DNA from: a virus
Lineage: Duplodnaviria; Heunggongvirae; Uroviricota; Caudoviricetes
DNA: 22,421 nt
Direction: 5' to 3' (one strand)
Virus record (IMG/VR): IMGVR_UViG_2724679538_000008
Location: 1-22,421 of that record
Numbering within the stretch: the stretch's first letter is position 1; each line of letters opens with the position of its first letter. A program made the translations under genes and the position numbers. The notes under the pieces are model-generated. The model was given only the letters and a program-made list of their open reading frames with translations, ran no database searches and was not told the DNA's origin. Below, in pieces: positions 2,152-21,390 of this stretch.

Positions 2152-3216
2152 TTAAGTTGATTCCAGACTTCCTTTGGTAAAAGCTTGTATCAGTCTGTTT
2201 GCTGCTGCTTTCTGCGCTGCCACATTGGCAATAACAGATAGTTTTTCCTGGCTGGCTTTCGTGCAGATCCCCGCCCAGTTATCCATCAGAAAAAAATCCT
2301 CTCTTTCTGCAGAGCTGGTAGTTGCACATAGTTTTTCGATCATAGAAGTTATTTCTGCGATGGAATGATTAACCATCATCTGTTGAACCGCAAAACCGAA
2401 AGCGTTAATCATTACTCCATGGAACTGAATATAATCGCGCTTGTACGTAGCGTGGTGTACACCATGTCGGATTGAGTCAATCTGAGTTAGTGTAATCCAT
2501 GCCTCCCAGACAGATTCTATATATCCCATTTCAAGTTGTTGATTGCCGTTCCTAGCGAACTTTGACGTTGCATCAGTGAGTGCCTTGAAACTCACCCACA
2601 TATTACTTTTTAATGGCACTACGTTGTGTTCAAAATCGGTTATATCGGCAAATACAGTATGTTGGGTCAGGAAGGATATCATTCCCTGAGCAATATCATC
2701 CCGGCCGTTATACGCCATATTGATGGTCGCTGATGGCTTAGAAACGTTGTTATTTATGTCCGAAAAGAACTGCTGCCGGGTTTTTAGCGGCAGATTCATT
2801 GTAAGCATCATGGGAACCATGAGTGTTGATGGGGAACTTCGGCAAAATATCTCAATGCCAGCTGCACGATGTTGACCATCAAAAAGTTTTATTTCGGCGT
2901 CGAGGGGAATTCTGGCTATACCAACATTTGTGTTGCCAAACGGTACAAATTCTATATTCGAATCACAGTTACCTACGAGAGGGGGAATGATAAAAGGCTC
3001 ATTTCTTGAGTCTGCGTTAGTGAGATAATTTAAAAATTTTCGTACTCGATTTGGATTAATTTCTCGCTGAGAGCGTTCCAGTGTATGGCCGTAATTATCT
3101 GAAGCGAGGAAACGAGCCAGCGATCTTCCTGGTATGGTAAGGAAGAGTGTAACAGTACCACCCTGTACACCTTGCGATGCCGGAAATTCGAATGAATGAT
3201 TACCAACCTGACTCAT
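2152..3216 (-). CDS. DGQHR-domain protein (DndB/DpdB-like, ParB-like fold family), stand-alone
   Basis: 354-aa ORF containing the literal motif 'KLFDGQHRAAGIE' (DGQHR). Strong SD 'CAGGAGGA' 6 nt upstream of the ATG. The start overlaps the stop of an upstream 54-aa ORF (ATGA). Confidence 0.75.
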   Translation of the reverse strand: MSQVGNHSFEFPASQGVQGGTVTLFLTIPGRSLARFLASDNYGHTLERSQREINPNRVRKFLNYLTNADSRNEPFIIPPLVGNCDSNIEFVPFGNTNVGIARIPLDAEIKLFDGQHRAAGIEIFCRSSPSTLMVPMMLTMNLPLKTRQQFFSDINNNVSKPSATINMAYNGRDDIAQGMISFLTQHTVFADITDFEHNVVPLKSNMWVSFKALTDATSKFARNGNQQLEMGYIESVWEAWITLTQIDSIRHGVHHATYKRDYIQFHGVMINAFGFAVQQMMVNHSIAEITSMIEKLCATTSSAEREDFFLMDNWAGICTKASQEKLSVIANVAAQKAAANRLIQAFTKGSLEST

Positions 3217-5894: not shown

Positions 5895-6743
5895 TTATGC
5901 TGATTTTTTAGTATGTCTACTATTATATTTTTCTAGCAGATCTGCTAACTGATCTTCTTTTGGTGGTCTAGGGAGATTGTTTCTTACATTGCTTCGCTTC
6001 TGAGCTTCAGCTATTCGATCACCAAAGTATCTTTTGAAGATCTCGTATTCTGCACAGTTTTCCGGATCTACATCATAAAATGATAACTTGCCGTAAATTG
6101 CACAAAACCAGTCAGCGCATTGAATTGTTTGGTATAGTTTACTGTCTACTTGTACAGGGGCTTCAAGCAATTGATACTTCTCTTCTTGATGCATTTCATA
6201 GATTGCTTCTTTAACAATCTCGCTTCTCATTTCATGATCGTCCATGAAAATCAAGAATTGAGCATCTTGATTTTTGAACTCATTGTCTAGCCGTTTTATT
6301 ACTTCTTTAAAGCTTGATTTATAAGTTCGTTGAGGGTTATGAGATGCAACACCAATGCGTTTAGCTTCTCCTACGTAGAAAAGAAAGCCGCCATAACGAG
6401 TAATAGTGTTAATTATTCTGTTTGTGCTTCTTGTTAAGTATTTTTTGTACTGTGTTAAATTTTTTACAGAATACTGTTTGGAACCTTTTTTCTCCCAACA
6501 TGACAACTGGAAACGCTCGCCCTTAGCTTGTGCCTTTCTTCTGGCTTCTGGTATGTCATAAGAACCGAACAGTTGTTGCTTATGCTTGAAGAAGAAATGA
6601 GAAAAATCTCTTACTCTATTGGCTGGTAGGACGAATCCACCAAGCCCAAAAACTGGATGTGTATTATGCTGAGGATGTTTCTTGGAAATGTACGGGCCAT
6701 CATGACCAAACTCATCCAAGTAAACTATGAATATATTTGACAT
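5895..6743 (-). CDS. DUF3800-like protein in the rexAB position (downstream of cI, same strand)
   Basis: ORF track 5895..6758; the likely start is the second ATG (6743), preceded by 'GGGGCAAGG', giving 'MSNIFIVYLDEFGHDG...'. The N-terminal '[IV]Y[IL]DE.G' type start is what I recall for DUF3800. AT-rich relative to the flanking lambda genes. Confidence 0.5.
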   Translation of the reverse strand: MSNIFIVYLDEFGHDGPYISKKHPQHNTHPVFGLGGFVLPANRVRDFSHFFFKHKQQLFGSYDIPEARRKAQAKGERFQLSCWEKKGSKQYSVKNLTQYKKYLTRSTNRIINTITRYGGFLFYVGEAKRIGVASHNPQRTYKSSFKEVIKRLDNEFKNQDAQFLIFMDDHEMRSEIVKEAIYEMHQEEKYQLLEAPVQVDSKLYQTIQCADWFCAIYGKLSFYDVDPENCAEYEIFKRYFGDRIAEAQKRSNVRNNLPRPPKEDQLADLLEKYNSRHTKKSA

Positions 6744-6916
6744 TACCTTGCCCCACATACACGGAAGCCCGACTTAAAAAAGCCGGGCCCCGGAATCAGC
6801 AGCAGAAGAAGGTTAAATCTCCCGCCTCTTGTGTTTAAGTATCAGAGAATGTCATCAAAAAGTCAATATGTGTTATGGGAAAATATTACTCAAATACCTC
6901 ATCAGAACACGGCTGA

Positions 6917-10930: not shown

Positions 10931-12349
10931 TTAGAAAATAATGTTTGCTATATCCGAGATAGCATTTAAAGAACCTCTGTGGTCACTTCCTGTTTTAGGT
11001 AAAATATAGGAATATCGAGGGTCTTCATTATATGTTAACTTCCAGTGTTTTCCATCGCTTGACGCACTGAAACCTAAGTCCTTTAAATTTCTTTGTGTTG
11101 CGCTATCCATGCTTCTGTAACCTGTTAAAGTCCTTTTAAGTAATTGGCGGCGACTCTCGGTTTCTTTATTGTATTCATTATTGGCAATTAGGGATGATAA
11201 GATATGGTAGCTTCTACCAAATTCATTTTTATTTTTTATGGCAGTTTTTAGTGCGTCAATAATTATATTTTTGATTTCTCCATCAAAAAAGTCAGTCTCT
11301 TCACCAGCATTAAGCACAATGCTTCCTTGGGCTGAAGCTTGTGATTGAAGAGTGCGTACTCTGTGCTCTAAAGAGGAGATCTTATGCTTAAGATCTTCTA
11401 TTTGGTCATCTTTCGCAACATTATCGGCTTCGTAAAGCGCCATCAGTTCGCGTGTGTATTCTCCTCTTTCTTTGAGTGAGTTAATAGAGTCTTTCGTTTT
11501 TCTGGTTTGTATCTCACTCCATCCACTATCTGAGACAGGAGCCATTGTAGTCGTAGCTCTTACAACATCATCAAATAACTCATCTTCAAATTCTTTTGCG
11601 GTTTTCTCACCACGGCGATAAAAACTGATATTTTGACCCCGTGGCCAATAGATACCAACAGCACCAGCATAGGCATTTTTAGCATTTGTCTCATTTTTTA
11701 GCTTAATAGAAAATAGTCTATTGCTAGGCTCAATTAATACATGTGCTAATCCGCATACCTTTCTTGCAAGGCGTTCTGGGATGATATTGTGAGCATGTTC
11801 ATTAAAAAAATACTTGGAGCTAACGTATATTATTGGTAGTCTGTTGTCAGTTTCACCATTTATAACTTTAGCTGCTATATTTAAATGTTCATCAGTATCA
11901 TCTAAGGAATGAGGTTCGACTGACACCTTGAAAATATCATCAAGACCACCAGAAAATTTATCAATCAATCTCATAACAACTAATGGTTTCTTAGGTTGCG
12001 GGGCTAGATAAGCTGCATCTTGGCTTACAACGCTAGATTCCACCTGAATCCACATGGTATCAGTTTTGAGATTTTTATTAATTGAAATATCTGTTACCCA
12101 TTTGTGTGGCTCAGATATTTTCGAATACCTAAAACAGCCTAAACTAGTATCTTTGTTTTTATAAGTTATTATATCAATTCTTTCATTTTTAGACTCTATG
12201 AAGTACTCCTCGCTTTTATAATCACATACTAATTGTGCTGGAATAAAAGTTGTATGTGGTGAGTCGTTTACCCAAGAAAAACATTCATTAAAGATCTCAG
12301 CTAGAGATGTGGAGTTTGAAACATAAAAACCAGTTGAGAAATATTTCAT
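10931..12349 (-). CDS. Large orphan protein (472 aa), AT-rich, no recognisable domain
   Basis: Long uninterrupted ORF on the strand opposite to the early-right operon. Visibly lower GC than the flanking lambda genes. Central predicted coiled-coil ('ELMALYEADNVAKDDQIEDLKHKISSLEHRVRTLQSQ'). No Walker A or other motif I can name. Confidence 0.7.
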   Translation of the reverse strand: MKYFSTGFYVSNSTSLAEIFNECFSWVNDSPHTTFIPAQLVCDYKSEEYFIESKNERIDIITYKNKDTSLGCFRYSKISEPHKWVTDISINKNLKTDTMWIQVESSVVSQDAAYLAPQPKKPLVVMRLIDKFSGGLDDIFKVSVEPHSLDDTDEHLNIAAKVINGETDNRLPIIYVSSKYFFNEHAHNIIPERLARKVCGLAHVLIEPSNRLFSIKLKNETNAKNAYAGAVGIYWPRGQNISFYRRGEKTAKEFEDELFDDVVRATTTMAPVSDSGWSEIQTRKTKDSINSLKERGEYTRELMALYEADNVAKDDQIEDLKHKISSLEHRVRTLQSQASAQGSIVLNAGEETDFFDGEIKNIIIDALKTAIKNKNEFGRSYHILSSLIANNEYNKETESRRQLLKRTLTGYRSMDSATQRNLKDLGFSASSDGKHWKLTYNEDPRYSYILPKTGSDHRGSLNAISDIANIIF

Positions 12350-12588: not shown

Positions 12589-13008
12589 TACATTCGGTGT
12601 TTTACTTCGACAGCCAGAATTGGGAGTCTCTATTCGTCTGGCGGCTAAAGGTGATATGGAAATCGTTATGTTTTGGCCTGAGGTAGTTGTAACTGTTGTA
12701 GCAGCTATGGCTGTGATCATCATGGTGTCCATTTACTGGGGTTGACGACATGATTTATCCGGCGCTATATTCTGTGCGTTGCCGCAAAATCGGCACACGG
12801 GATTGGCGTCCCGGGATACTACTCAACGCATACCGCGTTAAGCGGTTTTTTTGTGCGCTAAGCACGGCTATGCCCAAATTATGGTGGGCTGTGTGAGGGC
12901 TTCTTCGGAAGCGCCGGGTTTGAGTAGCCGGTTACGCCAACCTTACACAGTTCACCACCAGTCGATTGGCGTCGTTGGTGGTGATGGTTAACCTGATGAG
13001 GTGATACT

Positions 13009-13617
13009 ATGACTACTCAATTAGCATTCCACAAAACGACGTTTACCCCGATTTGCCACAATAACAGAATTTGGCTTACTGCCACTGAAGTTGGTTTAGC
13101 ACTGGAATATGCGGACGATAAAGCAGTTCAGCGTATTTACTCTCGGCACTCAGATGAATTCACAGATATGATGACAAGGGTGGTCAAAGTGACCACCCCT
13201 CGTGGAATGCAGGAGTCTCGAGTATTTAGCCTTCGCGGAGCCCATTTGATCGCCATGTTTGCTCGTACTCCTGTGGCCAAAGAATTCCGCCGCTGGGTTC
13301 TGGATATTCTCGATCGAGAAGTTCAACAATCCCCAATCACAAAACAATTCACTGATAACGAACTTTGCACACTCGCCTGGTTATGGCGAGCAAGTGATAC
13401 GATGTTAACCGCCTGCCAGAACGTTACGCCCCTTCTTCAGGTCGCAGAGCATCGCGAAGCAGGTAGATTCACTTCAATCGAACAAGAATATCCTCGGATA
13501 CTCAACAGGGCGCGAGAAATCCTTGCCAGAGAAACGGCGCATGTAAAATTCCAACCGTGGCAGGATGATAAGTGGAGTCGTGTGTTACCATATTTCCGTC
13601 AGAATCTGTTGCAATAA
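13009..13617 (+). CDS. Bro-N domain antirepressor-like protein
   Basis: 202-aa ORF; the N-terminal half 'IWLTATEVGLALEYADDKAVQRIYSRHSDEF...ESRVFSLRGAHLIAMFARTPVAKEFRRWVLDILDRE' follows the Bro-N pattern (W..A.DV...L.Y ... E..V.SL.G...I..AR.P.AK.FR.WV). Has its own upstream promoter-like element. Confidence 0.6.
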   Translation: MTTQLAFHKTTFTPICHNNRIWLTATEVGLALEYADDKAVQRIYSRHSDEFTDMMTRVVKVTTPRGMQESRVFSLRGAHLIAMFARTPVAKEFRRWVLDILDREVQQSPITKQFTDNELCTLAWLWRASDTMLTACQNVTPLLQVAEHREAGRFTSIEQEYPRILNRAREILARETAHVKFQPWQDDKWSRVLPYFRQNLLQ

Positions 13618-16046: not shown

Positions 16047-16424
16047 ATGCGTGATATTCAGATGGTTCTTGAGCGTTGGGGAGCGTGGGCGGCTAATAAT
16101 CATGAAGATGTGACCTGGTCGTCCATTGCCGCCGGTTTTAAGGGATTAATTCCTTCAAAAGTAAAATCTCGCCCACAATGTTGTGACGATGACGCGATGA
16201 TCATTTGCGGGTGCATGGCCCGTCTGAAAAAGAACAACAGCGATTTGCATGATTTATTGGTGGACTATTATGTCGGCGGCATGACTTTTATGGCGCTTGC
16301 ACGTAAGCATGGGCGATCTGATTGTTGGGTTGGCAGGATGCTCCAGAAAGCTGAGGGCGTAGTGGAGGGTATGCTGATGGTGTTGGATCTCCGATTGGAG
16401 ATGGATGCTGATTGTTCGAAATAA
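16047..16424 (+). CDS. Q: Late-gene antiterminator Q (QuuD/phage 82-type)
   Basis: '[81 protein letters not shown]...' matches DLP12 QuuD-type Q as recalled. GGAG lies 7 nt upstream of the ATG at 16047 (ORF track begins at a TTG at 16032). Confidence 0.85.
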
Positions 16425-16522
16425 TTAAAGGAAAAGTTGCTGTCTGATTGTCATTAGTCTAACATTTTAAATGTTGGAATCGCAACGTAGTTATTATCAT
16501 ATAACAGCTTGTTTCCTGATTT

Positions 16523-16551
16523 AGCCAGCCTCCCCAAAGGCTGGTTTTTTC
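16523..16551 (+). terminator. Rho-independent terminator downstream of Q (tR'-like)
   Basis: CCAGCC-uccccaaa-GGCUGG followed by UUUUUU, about 100 nt after the Q stop, where lambdoid phages place the PR' transcript terminator that Q-modified polymerase reads through. Confidence 0.7.
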
Positions 16552-16578
16552 TAATAAGTATTATTTCGAGTAGGGATT

Positions 16579-17103
16579 TTATTGTTTAACCCATAATAAT
16601 TCATTGACATTGAATCCCAACTTTTGAGCGGTTCGCACATAGTCTGCTTTTACTTTATCTGGAATAGTTGGGGTCCTTGCCAGAATCCATAGGTATTCTC
16701 TGTTCGGACCACTGACAAGAGCATACTTATACTCATCATCCAGTTTGATTACATTATAGCCACCATAGAAGGGGCCAAAAAACGAAACCTTCAACGCTGC
16801 AGTTTTAGTATCTCCAGTAAAGTATGCTTTACCTTCGCTCTCGCTCCATTTATTTTTCGTTGGATCGTATCCACGGTTAAGTACACGAATCCCTCCGTCG
16901 TTCCGTTTTCCATAAGTAGCGCTGACCTGTTCCAGACCACGTTCGAACCGGTTCTCGAGGCGAGCTATTTCATACCATTTTCCGAGGTAGCGGTTGGCGT
17001 CAAAATTTGTAATCGGCTGCACACCTTTAGGTGGTGTCGGGGCCTTACATGCTATAAGAGTGAAAGAGAGTGCAATGCCAGTCAACACAGGCCATAACTT
17101 CAT
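16579..17103 (-). CDS. Bacterial lipocalin (Blc-like outer-membrane lipoprotein)
   Basis: 174-aa protein with signal peptide and lipobox 'LIAC'. 'FDANRYLGKWYEIARLENRFERGLEQVSATY...GKAYFTGDTKTAALKVSFFGPFYGGYNVIKLD...YLWILARTPT' closely parallels E. coli Blc. Confidence 0.85.
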   Translation of the reverse strand: MKLWPVLTGIALSFTLIACKAPTPPKGVQPITNFDANRYLGKWYEIARLENRFERGLEQVSATYGKRNDGGIRVLNRGYDPTKNKWSESEGKAYFTGDTKTAALKVSFFGPFYGGYNVIKLDDEYKYALVSGPNREYLWILARTPTIPDKVKADYVRTAQKLGFNVNELLWVKQ

Positions 17104-17295
17104 AATAAATCCTGTACTTTTGATAGTTGAGAGTAAGTATGAAAGATAGATGATTACGACCGATCACTTAAAGAACTTTCATACTATATTAGGAATAGTC
17201 CATAACAGAAAAATTGTCAGTGATGACGCCAGAAAGGCAATTTATTCCGTGCACTACACAGTTTATGTGTTAATGAATTAGTCAAGGGGGAGAAT

Positions 17296-18255
17296 ATGAT
17301 AAAAAAACCTGTGATTGGAATCAGCGGTTGTTTGGCCGGTTCTGCTGTTCGTTTTGATGGTGGTCACAAAAGAGCTGACTTTTTAATGGACAAATTAGTG
17401 GAATGGGTAACATTCAGACCAGTATGTCCAGAAATGGCTATAGGGCTGCCAGTTCCGCGTCCTGCTCTACGTCTTGTGCGCTCGACGCAAGGAAATATAC
17501 GGATGTGTTTCAGCCACGACCAGAATGAGGATGTGACAGAGAGAATGACAGAGTTTAGTCGTTCTTATATGGACAAATTAAAGGATGTATCGGGGTTTGT
17601 GGTTTGTGCTAAATCTCCCAGCTGTGGCATGGAGCGCGTGCGTGTCTATGATGAAAATGGTAATCGAGGTCGTAAAGATGGAGTGGGACTATTTACGAGC
17701 ACTTTGATGGAAAAGTTTTCCTGGCTACCGGTTGAAGAGGATGGGCGATTACATGATCCAGTGCTTCGTGAGAATTTTGTTGAAAGAGTTTTTGCTTTGC
17801 ATGAGCTCAATCATCTTTACAAGGAGAAATTATCAAGAAGAGAGTTATTAGCTTTTCATAGTCGTTATAAGCTTCAGTTATTGGCGCATAGTCAGGCAGG
17901 CTATAAAGATATGGGACCATTTGTGGCTGCAATACACGAGTGGGCGGACCTTGAATCATACTTTGAGGTGTATCGTGATAAGCTGATGGCGATTCTCAGA
18001 AAACCTGCATCACGTAAAAATCACACGAATGTGCTGATGCATATACAGGGGTATTTTAGTAACTACTTAAGTACACGCCAGCGTAAAGAGTTGAGCGAGG
18101 TTATACTTAACTATCGTTCTGGCACATTACCTCTTCTTGCGCCGTTGACTCTGCTGAAGCATTATCTGGGTGAGTATCCTAATGATTACTTGCTTACACA
18201 GAATTACTTCGATCCCTATCCGGACGAACTGGCTCTAAGACTGATGGTAAATTAA
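17296..18255 (+). CDS. DUF523 (TudS/YbgA-like, Cys-rich) + DUF1722 two-domain protein
   Basis: N-terminus 'KPVIGISGCLAGSAVRFDGGHKRADFL...PVCPE...CAKSPSCGME' resembles YbgA/DUF523, which I recall as the TudS 4Fe-4S thiouracil desulfidase family. The C-terminal helical half is consistent with DUF1722. SD 'AAGGGGGAG' upstream. Confidence 0.6.
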   Translation: MIKKPVIGISGCLAGSAVRFDGGHKRADFLMDKLVEWVTFRPVCPEMAIGLPVPRPALRLVRSTQGNIRMCFSHDQNEDVTERMTEFSRSYMDKLKDVSGFVVCAKSPSCGMERVRVYDENGNRGRKDGVGLFTSTLMEKFSWLPVEEDGRLHDPVLRENFVERVFALHELNHLYKEKLSRRELLAFHSRYKLQLLAHSQAGYKDMGPFVAAIHEWADLESYFEVYRDKLMAILRKPASRKNHTNVLMHIQGYFSNYLSTRQRKELSEVILNYRSGTLPLLAPLTLLKHYLGEYPNDYLLTQNYFDPYPDELALRLMVN

Positions 18256-18604
18256 TTGTATGCGATATCATCCAAAAGGATAAGTTCCTGCATGCAGGAT
18301 ATTTACAATCGTAAAAACTACACTATGATACCCAGAGTGTCAGTTTGTATAAAAACTCTGTTTACGCTGAAGAAACCATTGAGATGCAACTTAAAGTTGG
18401 TAAACATGCCAGTCAAAATATAATATTATGATTCCACGCAGCTATATATAATATAACAGATTGGTTTAATAATTTGTCTTTGTGAGTTAAATACATAATT
18501 TTATACTTGTGATGCAATGAGATTTTCCTTATTGTTGAACTGGCGAATATTGATTTTCCACCTATACTTACCTGGTGTAACCCCAATGATATCAGGTGGA
18601 TAAT

Positions 18605-19336
18605 ATGCCATACATATGTTCTATCATTTTGGTGTTGAACTCGTTTGATGCCCGAATTGGTAAAGAAGATATTTTGTTTAAAAAAGGAAGTGCTGTTCTC
18701 ATTGATTACAATTTAAAAGATTTTTTTTCATCAAATATAGATCATGTAATGATCGTAGATGTTGAAGAGAAAACAGTTAATGATTTCTTTAAAAGCAACA
18801 CACTCTCACCTTTTTCTGTAAGAAGGTTTTATCCGGCATACTTGATGGTGGAATGTGAAGATTTTTCATTGTTAAAGAACTTGATTGCATGCTTGAATTG
18901 TGATGGCAGAACTGTGGATTTTGTTAGAAATCAAATATCACTTGCATGTCTTGCTATCTTATCTTCAGAGAAAATAGTGCAAAGTTTTTTATTTGGATGT
19001 CTTAATAGTTTAGGAAGTAAAGTTAAGGCTATTATTCACACGGATATATCTGCAGCATGGAGACTTTGTGATATATCTTCAAGACTGTATCTGAGTGAAA
19101 GTCTGTTAAAAAGAAAATTAAAGCACGAAGGCTTATCATTTAGTAAGTTAATTCTTGAAGAGCGAATGGTGATGGCGGAAAGGTTATTAAGCTACAATTT
19201 ATATTCTGTTGGAAAAGTTGCTAAGATATGCGGTTATGAAAATACGTCATATTTTGTAAGTGTTTTCAGAAGATATTTTGGTGTTCCTCCCCATCAATAT
19301 TCATCAAGATTTTTTTTAGAAAAAGACATGATGTAA
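18605..19336 (+). CDS. AraC-family transcriptional regulator (AppY/GadX-like architecture)
   Basis: C-terminal AraC HTH 'WRLCDISSRLYLSESLLKRKLKHEGLSFSKLILEERMVMAERLLSYNLYSVGKVAKICGYENTSYFVSVFRRYFGVPPHQY'. Very AT-rich gene. 'AGGTGGA' lies upstream of the ATG at 18605. Confidence 0.8.
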   Translation: MPYICSIILVLNSFDARIGKEDILFKKGSAVLIDYNLKDFFSSNIDHVMIVDVEEKTVNDFFKSNTLSPFSVRRFYPAYLMVECEDFSLLKNLIACLNCDGRTVDFVRNQISLACLAILSSEKIVQSFLFGCLNSLGSKVKAIIHTDISAAWRLCDISSRLYLSESLLKRKLKHEGLSFSKLILEERMVMAERLLSYNLYSVGKVAKICGYENTSYFVSVFRRYFGVPPHQYSSRFFLEKDMM

Positions 19337-19398
19337 CGTGATGCGTTTTAATGATTTTGTAATTTTCGTATTTGATAATTGTATGATGCTTTCAGCTA

Positions 19399-19429
19399 CG
19401 CCAGAATAATCGCTGGCGTTTTTCTTTTT
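19399..19429 (+). terminator. Rho-independent terminator downstream of the AraC-family gene
   Basis: CGCCAG-aauaaucg-CUGGCG followed by UUUUUCUUUUU. Confidence 0.6.
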
Positions 19430-19524
19430 GAATAGATGTTCAAGCCTTACGCTAATGTAACTTCTATACCTTTCCTCTTCGTTCCGAACCGTGTACACCA
19501 TCCGTTATTTGCGGAGGTGAGGCT

Positions 19525-19740
19525 ATGAAATCCATGGATAAGTTAACAACGGGCATTGCCTACGGCACCTCCGCAGGCAGTGCTGGCTACTGGTTTTTAC
19601 AGCTGCTCGATAAAGTCACGCCCTCACAGTGGGCAGCAATAGGTGTGCTGGGTAGCTTGGTATTTGGCCTGCTGACGTACCTGACAAACCTTTATTTCAA
19701 GATTAAAGAAGATAAGCGCAAGGCTGCGAGAGGTGAATAA
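19525..19740 (+). CDS. S: Class II holin, phage 21 S-type pinholin (dual start)
   Basis: 71-aa protein '[71 protein letters not shown]' with two TMDs and the Met1-Lys2-Ser3-Met4 dual-start motif. GGAGGTGAGG SD. Confidence 0.9.
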
Positions 19741-20237
19741 TGCCTCCATCATTACGAAAAGCCGTTGCTGCTGCTATTGGTGGCGGAGCAATTGCTATAG
19801 CATCAGTGTTAATCACTGGCCCAAGTGGTAACGATGGTCTGGAAGGTGTCAGCTACATACCATACAAAGATATTGTTGGTGTATGGACTGTATGTCACGG
19901 GCATACAGGAAAAGACATCATGCTCGGTAAAACGTATACCAAAGCAGAATGCAAAGCCCTCCTGAATAAAGACCTTGCCACTGTCGCCAGACAAATTAAC
20001 CCGTACATCAAAGTCGATATACCGGAAACAACGCGCGGCGCTCTTTACTCGTTCGTCTACAACGTGGGTGCTGGCAATTTCAGAACATCGACGCTTCTTC
20101 GCAAAATAAACCAGGGTGATATCAAAGGCGCATGTGATCAGCTACGGCGCTGGACATACGCTGGCGGTAAGCAATGGAAAGGTCTCATGACTCGTCGTGA
20201 GATTGAGCGTGAAATCTGTTTGTGGGGTCAGCAATGA
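19740..20237 (+). CDS. R: SAR endolysin (phage 21 R-type lysozyme)
   Basis: N-terminal Gly/Ala-rich signal-anchor-release segment '[20 protein letters not shown]' followed by a lysozyme domain ('...[26 protein letters not shown]...'). Start overlaps the holin stop (TAATG). Confidence 0.9.
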
Positions 20238-20692
20238 ACAGAGTAACCGCGATTATCTCCGCTCTGGTTATCTGCATCATCGTCTGCCTGTCATGGGCTG
20301 TTAATCATTACCGTGATAACGCAATCGCCTACAAAGAGCAGCGCGATAACAAGGCCAGTGAACTGGAGAAGGCGAACGCCACCATCGCTGACATGCGGAA
20401 GCGTCAACGTGATGTAGCAGAACTCGACGCAAGATACACAAAGGAGCTTGCTGATGCTAACGCGACTATCGAAAGTCTCCGTGCTGATGTTTCTGCTGGG
20501 CGTAAGCGCCTGCAAGTCGCCGCCACCTGTGCAAAGTCAACGACCGGAGCCAGCGGCATGGGCGATGGAGAAAGCCCAAGACTTACAGCAGATGCTGAAC
20601 TCAATTATTACCGTCTACGAAGTGGAATCGACAGGATAACCGCGCAGGTTAACTACCTGCAGGAGTACATTAGGACGCAGTGCTTAAAATAA
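20234..20692 (+). CDS. Rz: Rz inner-membrane spanin (i-spanin)
   Basis: ATG overlapping the R stop (ATGA). N-terminal TMD '[20 protein letters not shown]' then a coiled-coil periplasmic domain. Contains an embedded +1-frame lipoprotein ORF. Confidence 0.85.
20454..20639 (+). CDS. Rz1: Rz1 outer-membrane lipoprotein spanin (o-spanin), embedded in Rz in the +1 frame
   Basis: '[33 protein letters not shown]...' has a signal peptide, lipobox VSAC and a Pro-rich mature part. AAGGAG lies 7 nt upstream of the ATG. Lies entirely within Rz. Confidence 0.75.
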
Positions 20693-20758: not shown

Positions 20759-20901
20759 ATGTCCGCAGTAAACGCGCATCTCACGCGCATATTAACGAGA
20801 GCCTTTCAGTAAGCGGGCCTGAGAATTGCCGTTATAGGTGGCGACCTCTCTCGGGCGGCTTTTCTGTGAGACAGGCTCACTTTCTAAAAGGTAAAGACGC
20901 T

Positions 20902-21390
20902 ATGAACCAATTAGAAGAAAAGCTTCAAAGAATGATTTCCTTATACAAGGAAGATAACTGCCAAAAAGTTCCTGAAAACATCGCAGAGTTAATGGAATTG
21001 GCAAGTGAATTTTCTGGCATGCTTAAGTCGTCAGATGTTCGGTCAGCGTTCTTTGTTGAAATGCTGATGCACGGCGGACTTATGGCAACAATGAGACGTG
21101 TAATGGAAGACCAGAGAAAAGAACCTCCTCAGGTATACGTTTTGTCATCGAAGAAAACTGGGCTAACCAAAATTGGGTATTCATCCAACATTCCACAACG
21201 CATCAAATCGCTTGGCAACTCTGGACCAGACTGTTTGAAGCTTGAGTGCCTGATCCCTGGTGGAAGAGAAACTGAAAACATGCTTCATCGCAAATTTGCC
21301 GCAAAGAGAAAGCACGGTGAATGGTTCGCCCTGTCCAAGGATGACATTGAGGGGTTGAAATCTGTAGCGCTTACTTCTGATGGCTATTAA
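20902..21390 (+). CDS. T5orf172-like (GIY-YIG-related) domain protein with uncharacterised N-terminal region
   Basis: C-terminal half 'VYVLSSKKTGLTKIGYSSNIPQRIKSLGNSGPDCLKLECLIPGGRETENMLHRKFAAKRKHGEWFALSKDDIEGL' fits the T5orf172 pattern (VY.L......KIG.S.N...R...L.....L.L.........E..LH..F...R..GEWF.L). ATG at 20902 is preceded by AAAGG (ORF track begins at a GTG at 20866). Confidence 0.6.
   Translation: MNQLEEKLQRMISLYKEDNCQKVPENIAELMELASEFSGMLKSSDVRSAFFVEMLMHGGLMATMRRVMEDQRKEPPQVYVLSSKKTGLTKIGYSSNIPQRIKSLGNSGPDCLKLECLIPGGRETENMLHRKFAAKRKHGEWFALSKDDIEGLKSVALTSDGY

What the first reader, a model, noticed from the sequence alone, without database searches (positions are those of the whole stretch)
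16425..19430. Cargo island in the Q-to-holin gap, the classical late-promoter moron site
Between Q with its tR'-like terminator and the holin, where Stx phages carry stx and DLP12 carries nmpC, this prophage carries three non-phage genes: a Blc-like lipocalin on the opposite strand, a DUF523/DUF1722 protein and an AraC-family regulator. The AraC gene has its own terminator. Q-dependent late transcription must read through about 3 kb of cargo, partly antisense to blc, to reach the lysis genes. Cargo here is typically expressed on induction and often affects host physiology or virulence.
Basis: partly seen in the sequence, partly recalled or inferred. Interest (0 to 1): 0.5.

Follow-up and report, generated by a model that had tools for sequence, protein, structure and literature searches.

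The report
Prophage cargo island split by late promoter
Between the antiterminator Q and the lysis genes, this lambdoid prophage carries three working non-phage genes (a lipocalin lipoprotein, the tRNA 4-thiouridine eraser RudS and a YdeO/AppY-like regulator). The phage's late promoter appears to sit inside the island, so only the regulator lies in the late transcript.

Summary
The three genes and both terminators are at the stated coordinates.

**It is real phage DNA.** The cargo occurs in 1152 of 5426 complete E. coli genomes and in 12 sequenced phage genomes. All three genes are under purifying selection (dN/dS 0.07-0.26).

**The middle gene is known.** It is 93% identical to RudS_vir of phage 1H12, which was shown experimentally to remove 4-thiouridine from tRNA.

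**blc and rudS came from a chromosome.** They form a divergent pair that is also neighbours in Enterobacter, Leclercia and some Citrobacter chromosomes.

**The transcription model needs correcting.**
- Q is 81% identical to Q of Stx2 phage 933W.
- The homologue of the 933W/Sp5 late promoter PR' is not next to Q. It lies at 18302-18329, between rudS and the regulator.
- It is unique in the window and is a conserved footprint in an otherwise divergent spacer.
- In DLP12 the same promoter lies between nmpC and essD.

**So the island has two slots.**
- blc and rudS sit upstream of PR'.
- The regulator fills the PR'-to-terminator leader.
- The terminator after Q is a displaced homologue of the Stx-phage tR'/StxS element.

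Overall this is a new member of a known kind, of moderate interest.

The parts
16047..16424 (+). Antiterminator Q of the Q933W type, in the Q21 structural family.
   Evidence: Pfam PF06530, E=2.5e-51. 81% identical over 120 aa to Q of Stx2 phage 933W. Distant match to the solved Q21 structures 6P18 and 6JNX, E=2e-8. Nucleotides 1-210 are 96-100% identical to K-12 quuD, but the last ~170 nt are only 60-80% identical, which marks a recombination breakpoint inside Q.
16481..16552 (+). StxS-like element ending in an intrinsic terminator (stem 16523-16546, U tract 16547-16552). It is a homologue of the Stx-phage tR', but here it lies upstream of PR'.
   Evidence: BLAST to the 933W StxS/tR' region gives 77% over 53 nt, E=1e-3; alignment. 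Only 2 differences in 73 nt between alleles that are 90% identical overall. It folds stably, z=-4.55. It terminates on the + strand only. The rpoS-pairing core GUAACGAA of StxS (core inferred here by comparison with DsrA from memory) reads GCAACGUA here.
16579..17103 (-). blc-like outer-membrane lipocalin lipoprotein (slot 1 cargo).
   Evidence: NCBIfam Blc subfamily, 316 bits against a 267 cut-off. 60% identical to K-12 Blc. Matches solved Blc structures at E=1e-68. About 80% identical to a second Blc paralogue that sits next to rudS in Enterobacteriaceae chromosomes. dN/dS 0.065.
17296..18255 (+). rudS, a TudS-DUF1722 fusion that removes 4-thiouridine from tRNA (slot 1 cargo).
   Evidence: Pfam 2-thiour_desulf plus DUF1722. 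93% identical to gp66 of phage 1H12, which is RudS_vir and lowered tRNA s4U when expressed in E. coli (PMC11417400). C12, C44, C110, E46, S107 and S109 are invariant. dN/dS 0.10.
18286..18299 (+). Short hairpin just after rudS and just before the PR' -35 element. It may be a weak terminator or insulator.
   Evidence: Palindrome TCCTGCATGCAGGA. The 1H12 allele has a different sequence that still pairs, TTCTCCTTAGAGAA.
18302..18329 (+). Late promoter PR', homologous to that of 933W, Sp5 and DLP12: TTTACA-ATCGTAAAAACTACAC-TATGAT. Predicted start site is A18336.
   Evidence: Best sigma-70 match in the region, 10 of 12. 15/16, 5/6 and 5/6 identity to the 933W -35/spacer, -10 and +1 blocks at identical spacing (read; one search gave the 15/16 core match). 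Unique in the window even with 3 mismatches, against 0.01 expected. Present once, on the late strand, in every related phage locus. 29/32 identical between diverged alleles whose flanks are 43-57% identical. In 933W and Sp5 the same motif places the start site exactly 258 nt from the end of tR', matching the published dRNA-seq and Term-seq result (PMC7547250).
18555..18571 (+). Conserved block TTTCCACCTATACTTAC containing CTATACT. It may be a second, sigma-S-type promoter for the regulator.
   Evidence: Invariant in six alleles inside a divergent spacer. A similar block precedes the 64%-identical regulator in L074. Its function is inferred.
18605..19336 (+). YdeO/AppY/PatE-like AraC-family regulator (slot 2 cargo). 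It lies in the PR' leader, with its ATG at about +269.
   Evidence: HTH_18 and HTH_AraC. Best NCBIfam match is YdeO over the full length, but at 127 bits it is below the equivalog cut-off of 348. 32% identical to AppY and to YdeO. 52% identical to an O157 regulator next to paoABCD that is probably PatE. GC is 32-34%. dN/dS 0.26.
19398..19430 (+). Intrinsic terminator that gates the lysis genes, the functional tR' equivalent. It ends at about +1095 from PR' and lies 95 nt before the holin ATG.
   Evidence: 7-bp GC-rich stem followed by TTTTTCTTTTT. Identical in the 90% alleles, whereas a 23-bp stretch just after it is deleted in the phage genome Lambda_ev087. No promoter-like site lies between it and the holin.
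19525..20692 (+). Lysis cassette: phage-21-type holin (essD), lysozyme (rrrD) and Rz, with an embedded Rz1.
   Evidence: Pfam Phage_holin_2_1, Phage_lysozyme and Phage_lysis. Homology to the porin-type phages resumes at the holin ribosome-binding site.

Best explanation
The interval is a composite accessory island in the late-control region of a Q933W-type lambdoid phage. The phage's own late promoter divides it into two slots.

**Slot 1 (Q stop to PR', 16425-18301).**
- It begins with a displaced StxS/tR'-like terminator element, which ends rightward transcription after Q.
- It then holds a divergent blc-rudS gene pair captured as a block from an enterobacterial chromosome.
- These two genes lie outside the Q-dependent transcript and must use their own promoters in the 192-bp divergent spacer. 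This step is inferred.
- RudS removes the near-UV-sensitive 4-thiouridine from host tRNA. This was shown for the 93%-identical RudS_vir.
- Blc is an outer-membrane lipid-binding lipoprotein, by homology.

**Slot 2 (PR' to the holin, 18302-19524).**
- PR' starts at about 18336 and, with no intervening terminator, runs into a low-GC YdeO/AppY/PatE-like regulator gene.
- Transcription then meets a strong terminator at 19398-19430, 95 nt before the holin.
- PR' is constitutive in lambda and is taken to be so in Stx phages. If that holds here, the regulator is made in the lysogen as the 'leader' product of PR'. A sigma-S-like promoter nearer the gene may add to this.
- When Q is made after induction, Q-modified polymerase reads through the terminator into the lysis and morphogenesis genes.
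- The regulator probably reprogrammes host acid-stress and stationary-phase genes, as AppY, PatE and PsrA/B do. This is inferred from family membership.
For: **It is real phage cargo.**
- 12 phage genomes and 1152 of 5426 E. coli genomes carry it, on two prophage backbones.
- The Q 3' allele plus post-Q region is found in 1116 genomes, so it is almost always linked to the cargo.
- All three genes are under purifying selection.

**Gene identities.**. RudS_vir experiments are in PMC11417400.

**Chromosomal origin of blc-rudS.**
- A Blc paralogue about 80% identical lies divergently upstream of rudS in most of the 62 chromosomal loci recovered. None of these loci has a Q or holin nearby.
- The two genes are directly adjacent in Citrobacter sedlakii and Citrobacter sp. 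JGM124.

**PR' location.**
- Q is 81% identical to Q933W.
- The 933W/Sp5 PR' motif predicts a start site exactly 258 nt from the end of tR', as published (PMC7547250).
- Its only homologue in the window is at 18302-18329. This is also the best promoter-like site in the region.
- The site is a conservation island, 29/32 identical against 43-57% in the flanks.
- The same motif lies between the porin gene and the holin in K-12 DLP12 and in the porin phage genomes. Q and PR' can therefore be separated by cargo in related phage genomes.

**No other promoter or terminator in the way.** There is no + strand terminator between 18336 and 19398, and no promoter-like site between 19430 and the holin.

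**An independent parallel.** A 64%-identical regulator sits directly after a lambda-type PR' (TTGCAT-17-TAGGAT, then CAATGATGGG) in an unrelated prophage.
Against: - No transcript data exist for this phage. The PR' assignment rests on homology and conservation alone.
- The annotated 933W 'qut' octamer GTGGTTAC reads GTGTCAGT here, and no convincing sigma-dependent pause element could be identified. Q responsiveness of this promoter is therefore not shown.
- The tR'/StxS homologue lies right after Q, where a canonical PR' unit would end. Two weak promoter-like sites precede it: TGGAGA-18-AATAAT at 16396-16425, and TTGCTG-17-TAACAT at 16437-16465. A second Q-proximal late promoter cannot be excluded.
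- The regulator may be silenced by H-NS or driven mainly by its own promoter.
- No target of the regulator is known.
- The PR' search pattern was derived from three of the sequences it matches.
Confidence: 0.7

Rival explanations
1. PR' lies directly after Q, the terminator at 16523-16552 is the true tR', and Q-modified polymerase transcribes the whole 3-kb island (antisense to blc, sense to rudS and the regulator) before reaching the holin.
For: - This is the canonical layout in lambda, phage 21 and 933W.
- The post-Q terminator is homologous to the Stx-phage tR'.
- Weak promoter-like sites lie between the end of Q and that terminator (read).
- A start site predicted from TTGCTG-17-TAACAT would coincide with the start of the StxS-like homology.
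Against: - Nothing resembling the PR' core of 933W or DLP12 lies after Q. The only copy is at 18302-18329.
- The 55 nt immediately after Q are the least conserved part of that spacer, and position 16450 shows all four bases among alleles.
- The candidate promoters there are poor: 7 of 12, and 9 of 12 with an 18-bp spacer.
- The phage 21 Q-binding repeat TGAGCA is absent.
- In the sister porin phages, PR' is demonstrably downstream of the cargo.
Confidence: 0.15
2. The site at 18302-18329 is only a relic of PR' that now serves as the regulator's ordinary promoter. It is not loaded by Q, and the lysis genes are expressed by some other route.
For: - The 933W qut octamer is not conserved, and no pause element was identified.
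- K-12 DLP12 has a published host-driven start site well upstream of essD. Mapping the published primers places it at about L075 12875, in a sigma-E-like context.
Against: - The -35, spacer, -10 and +1 blocks are conserved at identical spacing across 933W, DLP12 and all alleles of this cassette, including genomes of isolated or induced phages.
- No alternative promoter lies between the terminator and the holin.
- A strong terminator 95 nt before the holin makes sense only with antitermination.
Confidence: 0.1
3. The interval is ordinary chromosomal DNA, or an assembly or prophage-boundary artefact, and Q and the lysis genes belong to different elements.
For: The cargo genes have chromosomal relatives, and their GC content differs from the flanks.
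Against: - The identical arrangement is in 12 phage genome records, and the cargo is in about 1000 complete genomes.
- Full lambda-like structural genes follow the lysis cassette in relatives.
- The homology breakpoints lie inside Q and at the holin ribosome-binding site.
Confidence: 0.01

Closest known systems
Late-control region of Stx2 phages 933W and Sakai Sp5 (Q933, PR', StxS, tR', tRNAs, stx2, S)
   Same: - The Q proteins are 81% identical.
- The PR' core (-35, spacer, -10, +1) is homologous.
- The tR'/StxS 3' element is homologous.
- Accessory genes lie between PR' and the holin.
- The lysogen-active PR' produces a host-directed regulator there (the StxS sRNA; PMC7547250).
   Different: - In 933W, PR' overlaps the end of Q and tR' follows 258 nt later, so stx lies beyond tR' and needs Q.
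- Here about 1.9 kb of cargo separates Q from PR', and the tR'/StxS homologue is stranded upstream of PR'.
- A protein-coding regulator gene fills the PR'-to-terminator leader, with no terminator before it.
- The rpoS-pairing core of StxS is not conserved.
DLP12 of E. coli K-12 and porin-carrying phages (ev243, mEp332): quuD, nmpC, PR', essD
   Same: - The first 210 nt of Q and the lysis cassette are nearly identical.
- Cargo is inserted at the same place, between Q codon ~120 and the PR' -35, with PR' retained downstream of it.
- Relatives of this window integrate at the same site, argU.
   Different: - Slot 1 holds a porin gene on the opposite strand instead of blc-rudS.
- Slot 2 is empty: PR' is followed by the t1 terminator homologue and then essD after about 115 nt.
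- There is no StxS-like element after Q.
RudS_vir (gp66 of Escherichia phage 1H12), a tRNA 4-thiouridine desulfidase (PMC11417400)
   Same: 93% identical, with the same length (319 aa), the same Cys12/44/110, and the same position in the same cassette.
   Different: - That paper studied the enzyme from a synthetic gene on a plasmid and did not discuss its phage context.
- It states that E. coli lacks TudS or RudS homologues, yet 21% of complete E. coli genomes carry this prophage copy.
Prophage-encoded AraC-like regulators AppY (DLP12), PatE, and PsrA/PsrB (O157 prophages), plus chromosomal YdeO
   Same: - Same size and two-part architecture, with full-length similarity: 32% to AppY and YdeO, and 52% to the probable PatE.
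- Low GC and carried on a prophage.
- Family members activate gadE/hdeAB acid resistance and, for AppY, have pleiotropic effects on host physiology (PMC10877973, PMC10057817).
   Different: - It scores below the YdeO equivalog threshold.
- No target is known.
- It sits in the PR' leader rather than at a prophage end (AppY) or, as published, associated with effector loci (Psr).
- PsrA and PsrB themselves were not compared here.
Classical lambdoid morons (lambda bor and lom; HK97-type morons)
   Same: Accessory genes with deviating GC, present or absent among otherwise similar phages. blc, like bor, is a lipoprotein gene on the strand opposite to late transcription.
   Different: bor lies downstream of Rz. 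Here the cargo is a chromosome-derived two-gene block plus a separately acquired regulator, and the late promoter lies between them.

Membership tests
Lambdoid Q-dependent late-control cassette (Q933W / Q21 family) | A Q antiterminator protein of the family. | tested here: met
   PF06530 at E=2.5e-51. 81% identical to Q933W. Q21 structures matched at E=2e-8.
Lambdoid Q-dependent late-control cassette (Q933W / Q21 family) | A PR' promoter with a Q-binding element between -35 and -10. | tested here: met
   18302-18329 is homologous to the mapped PR' of 933W and Sp5, including the spacer ATCGTAAAAA. It is unique in the window and forms a conserved footprint. Binding by Q itself cannot be tested here.
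Lambdoid Q-dependent late-control cassette (Q933W / Q21 family) | A sigma-dependent pause element (-10-like) in the initially transcribed region. | tested here: inconclusive
   AGAGTG at +1 is conserved, but the 933W GTGGTTAC reads GTGTCAGT. CAGTTT and TATAAA are candidates only.
Lambdoid Q-dependent late-control cassette (Q933W / Q21 family) | An intrinsic terminator between PR' and the late genes. | tested here: met
   19398-19430, conserved among alleles, 95 nt before the holin.
Lambdoid Q-dependent late-control cassette (Q933W / Q21 family) | PR' immediately adjacent to the Q gene. | tested here: not met
   PR' is 1.9 kb from the Q stop codon. The same separation is seen in DLP12 and in the porin phages.
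RudS (TudS-DUF1722 tRNA 4-thiouridine desulfidase) | An N-terminal TudS/DUF523 domain fused to DUF1722. | tested here: met
   PF04463 covers residues 7-149 and PF08349 covers 192-309.
RudS (TudS-DUF1722 tRNA 4-thiouridine desulfidase) | Three cluster-binding cysteines plus catalytic Glu and Ser residues. | tested here: met
   C12, C44 and C110 match the numbering given for RudS_vir in PMC11417400. E46, S107 and S109 are invariant. Mapping these to TudS Glu45, Ser101 and Ser103 rests on my own knowledge.
RudS (TudS-DUF1722 tRNA 4-thiouridine desulfidase) | Lowers tRNA s4U in vivo. | not testable with these tools
   Shown for the 93%-identical RudS_vir expressed in E. coli (PMC11417400).
Bacterial lipocalin Blc | A lipocalin fold with family-level sequence membership. 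| tested here: met
   NCBIfam Blc subfamily, 316 bits against a 267 cut-off. Solved Blc chains matched at E=1e-68. 60% identical to K-12 Blc.
Bacterial lipocalin Blc | A lipoprotein signal peptide with a lipobox cysteine. | tested here: met
   MKLWPVLTGIALSFTLIAC, with Cys19 and Lys at +2, read. No dedicated predictor was run.
YdeO / AppY / PatE-type AraC regulators | A C-terminal double helix-turn-helix of the AraC/XylS type. | tested here: met
   HTH_18 at E=1.5e-14 and HTH_AraC at E=8e-11.
YdeO / AppY / PatE-type AraC regulators | Equivalence to YdeO (NCBIfam equivalog threshold). | tested here: not met
   127 bits against a 348 cut-off, although the match spans the full length. It is a relative of YdeO, not YdeO itself.
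YdeO / AppY / PatE-type AraC regulators | Activates the gadE/hdeAB acid-resistance genes or app/hya operons. | not testable with these tools
   Known for family members only (PMC10877973, PMC10057817).
Moron (accessory gene unit in a phage genome) | Present or absent between otherwise closely related phages, with deviating base composition. | tested here: met
   The porin and blc-rudS-regulator cassettes occupy the same position between the same Q 5' part and holin. GC is 32-43% against 47-52% in the flanks.
Moron (accessory gene unit in a phage genome) | Its own promoter and terminator, allowing expression from the repressed prophage. | tested here: inconclusive
   There are spacers of 192 and 349 bp with promoter-like sites and a hairpin after rudS. 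No promoter is demonstrated, and the regulator appears to borrow PR'.
StxS sRNA | Sequence homology to the 74-nt StxS_S, including its terminator. | tested here: met
   77% over 53 nt at E=1e-3, and alignable over about 72 nt.
StxS sRNA | Lies between PR' and tR' and carries the rpoS-activating seed. | tested here: not met
   It lies upstream of PR'. The core GUAACGAA reads GCAACGUA, leaving at most 4 contiguous pairs with the rpoS leader. This was checked by hand against the sequence; the seed was inferred here by comparison with DsrA from memory, since PMC7547250 as read does not print it.

The most novel reading that the evidence does not exclude
In lambda the PR'-to-terminator leader yields the functionless 6S RNA, and in Stx phages it yields the StxS sRNA. 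In this phage lineage it has been filled with a complete YdeO/AppY/PatE-like transcription factor gene. The always-on late promoter would then express a host-reprogramming regulator throughout lysogeny, and a single terminator would separate 'regulator only' (lysogen) from 'regulator plus lysis and virion genes' (after Q). The same regulator family sits directly behind an unrelated lambda-type PR' in another prophage, which would make the PR' leader a recurrent docking site for such regulators. Separately, prophage-borne RudS would make tRNA 4-thiouridine content, and hence the near-UV growth-delay response, a strain-variable, phage-conferred trait in about a fifth of E. coli.
Probability: 0.35. 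Interest if true: 0.6.

Novelty: new member of a known kind. Interest (0 to 1): 0.4.

Why it matters
- **Where cargo sits decides how it is expressed.** Cargo around Q and PR' governs whether a gene is expressed in the lysogen or only on induction, which is the central issue for Shiga toxin. This island shows the 'Q-to-holin gap' is really two distinct slots with different regulatory consequences. Annotating PR' by homology, rather than assuming it abuts Q, changes which genes are predicted to be induction-coupled.
- **RudS is common in E. coli after all.** About 21% of complete E. coli genomes carry a prophage copy of RudS, an enzyme recently reported as absent from E. coli. That could alter tRNA modification and UVA responses between strains.
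- **Another candidate regulator of host stress genes.** The island adds an uncharacterised member to the prophage AraC-like regulators that control acid resistance and virulence programmes.

Tried and rejected
1. **Phage 21 Q-binding repeat.** TGAGCA-N2-TGAGCA was searched in the window and gave only chance-level hits, none near Q.
2. **A 'conserved' 9-mer.** ATATAACAG is shared by the post-Q regions of the blc-type and porin-type cassettes. BLAST E=0.5, so it was dropped.
3. **A 12-nt repeat.** GGAAAAGTTGCT occurs after Q and inside the regulator gene. It is one of five similar short repeats in 3.9 kb of AT-rich DNA, so it is treated as chance.
4. **A TGTC-N4-TGTC direct repeat as a possible Q-binding site at 16441-16452.** Position 16450 shows all four bases among alleles, so this is not supported.
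5. **PR' between the regulator's stop codon and the 19398 terminator.** No adequate promoter lies there, and the RNA would be only about 30 nt long, with the pause inside the hairpin. Rejected.
6. **Linkage as a way to discriminate promoter positions.** The Q 3' allele plus post-Q region and the cargo are almost always found together (1116 against 1152 genomes), so this was uninformative.
7. **Conservation of the blc-rudS spacer between phage and chromosomal copies.** None was found.
8. **Rfam.** Nothing reached the gathering threshold in the interval. The relaxed search of the post-Q spacer (16380-16620) gave only sub-threshold hits that mostly overlap the terminator hairpin.
9. **PADLOC.** No defence-system match for the three cargo proteins.
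10. **Papers that could not be read.** The two Rueggeberg et al. papers on DLP12 Q and RpoE, and the PatE paper, are not held. The DLP12 start site was reconstructed from primers in PMC7918800 instead.
11. **Literature on the three-gene cassette as a unit.** None was found.
12. **Link to Salmonella SPI-2.** The suspected relation of rudS plus the regulator to orf319-orf242 was not confirmed. The Salmonella RudS locus recovered lies next to ttcA, with no AraC gene nearby.

Full report
**1. What is there**

The window is a lambdoid prophage. Its gene order runs integrase, exo-bet-gam, cI-like repressor, cro, replication genes, a nin region, Q, the interval in question, and then a phage-21-type holin, lysozyme and Rz. 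Its closest relatives in complete E. coli genomes sit at the argU tRNA site used by DLP12, and a full lambda-like head and tail module follows their lysis genes.

- Q at 16047-16424 (PF06530).
- A Blc-type lipocalin lipoprotein at 16579-17103 on the minus strand.
- A DUF523 + DUF1722 protein at 17296-18255.
- An AraC-family protein at 18605-19336.

Two plus-strand intrinsic terminators are also present. One has its stem at 16523-16546 followed by T6. The other has its stem at 19398-19419 followed by TTTTTCTTTTT. Their number is no more than chance would give. However, both hairpins are identical in alleles that are only about 90% identical overall.

GC content drops from 47-52% in the flanks to 41-43% over blc and rudS, and to 32-36% over the regulator.

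**2. It is genuine, widespread phage cargo**

- The cargo alone (16560-19440) matches 1152 of 5426 complete E. coli genomes, and 1000 of them cover at least 80% of it.
- 623 genomes carry the whole region from rusA to Rz.
- Twelve phage genome records carry it: IdasGreatGrand at 98%, and 1H12, Lambda_ev087 and relatives at 90%.
- It occurs on DLP12-type and on Qin-type backbones, always between the same kind of Q and an essD-type holin.
- BL21(DE3) keeps a remnant, with blc intact and rudS cut by IS3. One strain has lost the regulator to an IS1 insertion.
- Between the window and phage 1H12, dN/dS is 0.065 for blc, 0.10 for rudS and 0.26 for the regulator. For comparison it is 0.07 for the holin and 0.04 for the lysozyme.

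The artefact or boundary explanation is therefore refuted.

**3. The genes**

*rudS.* The DUF523/DUF1722 protein is 93% identical to gp66 of phage 1H12. A 2024 study expressed that protein as 'RudS_vir' and found it lowers tRNA 4-thiouridine in E. coli. It belongs to a family of [4Fe-4S] desulfidases, and overexpressing RudS genes reduced UVA-induced growth delay (PMC11417400). Cys12, Cys44 and Cys110, plus Glu46, Ser107 and Ser109, are invariant. That paper says E. coli lacks RudS. This holds for K-12, but about a fifth of complete genomes have this prophage copy.

*blc.* The lipocalin is 60% identical to K-12 Blc. It is about 80% identical to a second Blc paralogue that lies divergently upstream of rudS in most of the 62 chromosomal loci recovered, from Enterobacter, Leclercia, Lelliottia, Phytobacter and others. 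The two genes are directly adjacent in Citrobacter sedlakii and Citrobacter sp. JGM124. In Enterobacter hormaechei (L016, the locus examined) an MlrA-like MerR regulator and a transthyretin-like gene separate them. None of these loci has a Q or holin nearby. The phage therefore captured blc-rudS as a block. The closest chromosomal RudS proteins are 74-77% identical, so the donor is not identified.

*The regulator.* It matches YdeO over its full length but scores below the equivalog cut-off. It is 32% identical to both AppY and YdeO. It is 52% identical to a regulator that lies next to paoABCD and occurs as a single copy at about 0.31-0.37 Mb in at least two O157:H7 genomes (FRIK804, FRIK944). 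That protein is probably PatE, but I could not confirm this because the PatE paper is not held. Family members activate gadE/hdeAB acid resistance, repress type III secretion, or (AppY) have pleiotropic effects on host physiology (PMC10877973, PMC10057817).

PHROGs has a family for each of the three proteins, all labelled 'unknown function'.

**4. Where the late promoter is**

This is the main correction.

*Nothing convincing lies next to Q.* I first looked for PR' directly after Q and found only weak candidates.

*Q is a close relative of Q933W.* Comparison with Stx2 phage 933W showed that the window's Q is 81% identical to Q933W.

*The 933W promoter is experimentally anchored.*
- Its annotated PR' is TTTACG-ATCGTAAAAATCTGCA-TATCAT, overlapping the end of Q.
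- In Sakai Sp5 the PR' start was mapped by dRNA-seq, and the StxS 3' end (tR') was mapped 258 nt downstream by Term-seq (PMC7547250).
- A start 7 nt after this -10 lies exactly 258 nt from the end of the tR' U tract in both 933W and Sp5. The motif is therefore the mapped promoter.

*The only homologue in the window is at 18302-18329.*
- It reads TTTACA-ATCGTAAAAACTACAC-TATGAT and is followed at the same spacing by the conserved AGAGTG, which contains the start site.
- It is the best promoter-like site in the region, matching 10 of 12 positions.
- It is unique in the window even with three mismatches, against 0.01 expected.
- It is a conservation island, 29/32 identical between the window and 1H12, in a spacer whose flanks are 43-57% identical and contain indels.

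*The same arrangement exists in related phages.* The motif occurs once per locus, on the late strand, in every related phage locus. In K-12 DLP12 and in phages ev243 and mEp332 it lies between the porin gene and the holin. The DLP12 copy is homologous to 933W PR'-qut-t1 over 83 nt (E=1e-12). Cargo therefore separates Q from PR' in related phage genomes from isolated or induced phages.

**5. The resulting anatomy**

*Slot 1 (Q stop to the PR' -35 element)* contains, in order:
- 55 poorly conserved nucleotides.
- A 72-nt element (16481-16552) homologous to the StxS_S/tR' segment of 933W. It differs at only 2 of 73 positions among alleles and folds stably (z=-4.55).
- blc on the minus strand, then rudS on the plus strand.
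- A small hairpin, whose pairing is retained in the 1H12 allele despite a different sequence.

*Slot 2 (PR' to the holin)* contains:
- A 269-nt leader with no terminator. It includes a conserved CTATACT block at 18562-18568, which may be a sigma-S-type promoter.
- The regulator gene.
- The terminator, ending at about +1095.
- 95 nt with no promoter-like site. A 23-bp deletion in this stretch is present in the phage genome Lambda_ev087.
- The holin ATG at +1189.

The terminator after Q is a tR' homologue that now lies upstream of PR' and most simply ends the Q transcript. It may also form the 3' end of a small RNA. A start predicted from TTGCTG-17-TAACAT (16437-16465) would coincide with the beginning of the StxS homology, but that promoter is weak, and the rpoS-pairing core of StxS is not conserved.

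**6. How it most likely works**

*Shown here or in the literature:*
- The gene identities.
- RudS activity in the 93%-identical orthologue.
- The mapped PR' and tR' in Stx phages; their PR' is taken to be constitutive, as shown for lambda.

*Inferred:*
- blc and rudS are expressed from their own promoters and are not part of the Q-dependent transcript.
- PR' transcribes the regulator in the lysogen and stops at 19430.
- After induction, Q loads at PR' and carries polymerase through that terminator into the lysis and virion genes.
- The regulator adjusts host acid-stress and stationary-phase genes, as its relatives do.

A 64%-identical regulator lies directly behind a lambda-type PR' in an unrelated prophage. 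That promoter reads TTGCAT-17-TAGGAT followed by CAATGATGGG, resembling (from my own recollection of the lambda sequence) lambda's CAACGATGGG pause signal. This suggests the association of this regulator family with PR' leaders is not a one-off.

**7. Weak points**

- There are no transcript data for this phage.
- The 933W 'qut' octamer is not conserved, and no pause element was identified.
- A second, Q-proximal promoter cannot be excluded.
- H-NS silencing of the AT-rich regulator gene is likely and could make PR'-driven expression small.
- K-12 DLP12 also has a host-driven start about 520 nt upstream of essD. I reconstructed this from published primers; it lies in a sigma-E-like context.
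- The PR' search pattern was built from three of the sequences it matches. The independent support comes from the diverged 1H12-type and Qin-type alleles and from the footprint.

**8. Comparison and verdict**

The island is a moron-type cargo region of a known kind, in a Q933-type late-control module.

What is already known:
- RudS_vir.
- The Stx-phage PR'/StxS/tR' unit.
- Prophage AraC-like regulators.
- nmpC in DLP12.

What I did not find described:
- The three genes treated as a unit.
- The chromosomal origin of the blc-rudS pair.
- The two-slot layout, with PR' inside the island and a regulator gene in its leader.

I rate it a new member of a known kind, of moderate interest (0.4). The most novel reading still open is that the PR' leader is a recurrent docking site for host-reprogramming regulators. 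I give that a probability of about 0.35.

Noticed in passing
window 12780-12962 (+), upstream of 13009-13617: Rfam finds an isrK Hfq-binding RNA (12780-12852, 58.7 bits) and a C4 antisense RNA (12877-12962, 74.8 bits), both above the gathering score. They lie directly upstream of a Bro-N/P22AR-type antirepressor gene. This resembles the P1/P7 c4-ant and Gifsy-1 IsrK arrangements.
   Followed up: no
window 10931-12349 (-): A 472-aa ORF with 34-37% GC lies on the opposite strand between the replication genes and the nin region. It has no Pfam match and only a weak PADLOC hit to candidate defence protein HEC-07 (E=1e-9). It may be a defence or accessory gene.
   Followed up: partly
window 5895-6758 (-) and 2152-3216 (-): There are two further accessory genes. 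One is a low-GC DUF3800 protein between the recombination genes and the repressor. The other is a DndB-like protein (Pfam and PADLOC DndB) near the integrase, with no other dnd genes noticed nearby.
   Followed up: no
window 20866-21390 (+): A T5orf172/MUG113-domain protein follows Rz directly, with a weak PADLOC PDC-S57 hit. Relatives annotate a KilA-N protein at this position.
   Followed up: no
L078 (E. coli BL21(DE3), NC_012892.2 1588183-1589579): BL21(DE3) carries a remnant of this cassette in its Qin-type prophage. Q and blc are intact, and rudS is truncated after about 49 codons by an IS3 element.
   Followed up: partly
L058 and L063 (contigs of a MAG labelled Candidatus Nanosynbacter sp. 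D148_maxbin.008): Two short contigs of a Saccharibacteria MAG encode this E. coli phage cassette at 94-100% protein identity (Q, blc, rudS, regulator, holin). This is almost certainly a binning contaminant.
   Followed up: no
L016 4018-6960, with similar blc-rudS spacing in about 40 other Enterobacter, Leclercia and Lelliottia loci: A chromosomal cluster reads blc (-), an MlrA-like MerR regulator, a transthyretin/HIUase-like gene, then rudS. The RudS paper reports that MerR-type light-responsive LitR regulators control RudS operons in Pseudomonas. This enterobacterial cluster may therefore also be light-responsive.
   Followed up: partly
L080 and L081 (Salmonella enterica contig and a metagenome contig): Here a 74%-identical rudS lies next to ttcA, the tRNA 2-thiocytidine synthase gene, in the dbpA-ttcA region. 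In K-12 this is the Rac prophage attachment region (location recalled from my own knowledge, not checked here). It places a tRNA thiolation gene beside a tRNA de-thiolation gene.
   Followed up: no
window 16450: A single position in the post-Q spacer shows all four bases (G, C, T, A) among eight otherwise nearly identical alleles.
   Followed up: no
window 16047-16424 compared with L075 9957-10340: There is a sharp recombination breakpoint inside Q. The first 210 nt are 96-100% identical to K-12 quuD and the last ~170 nt are 60-80% identical. The C-terminal third of Q, which by analogy with Q21 may include the DNA-binding part, therefore travels with the downstream cassette.
   Followed up: partly
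L075 12754-12875 and 13254-13285 (K-12 DLP12): Mapping the published reporter primers puts the reported essD start site at about L075 12875, just beyond the nmpC start codon, in a GAACTA-N16-TGTCAC (sigma-E-like) context. The 933W-type PR' and its t1 terminator homologue lie 320-400 nt further downstream. DLP12 may therefore have two promoters feeding essD.
   Followed up: partly
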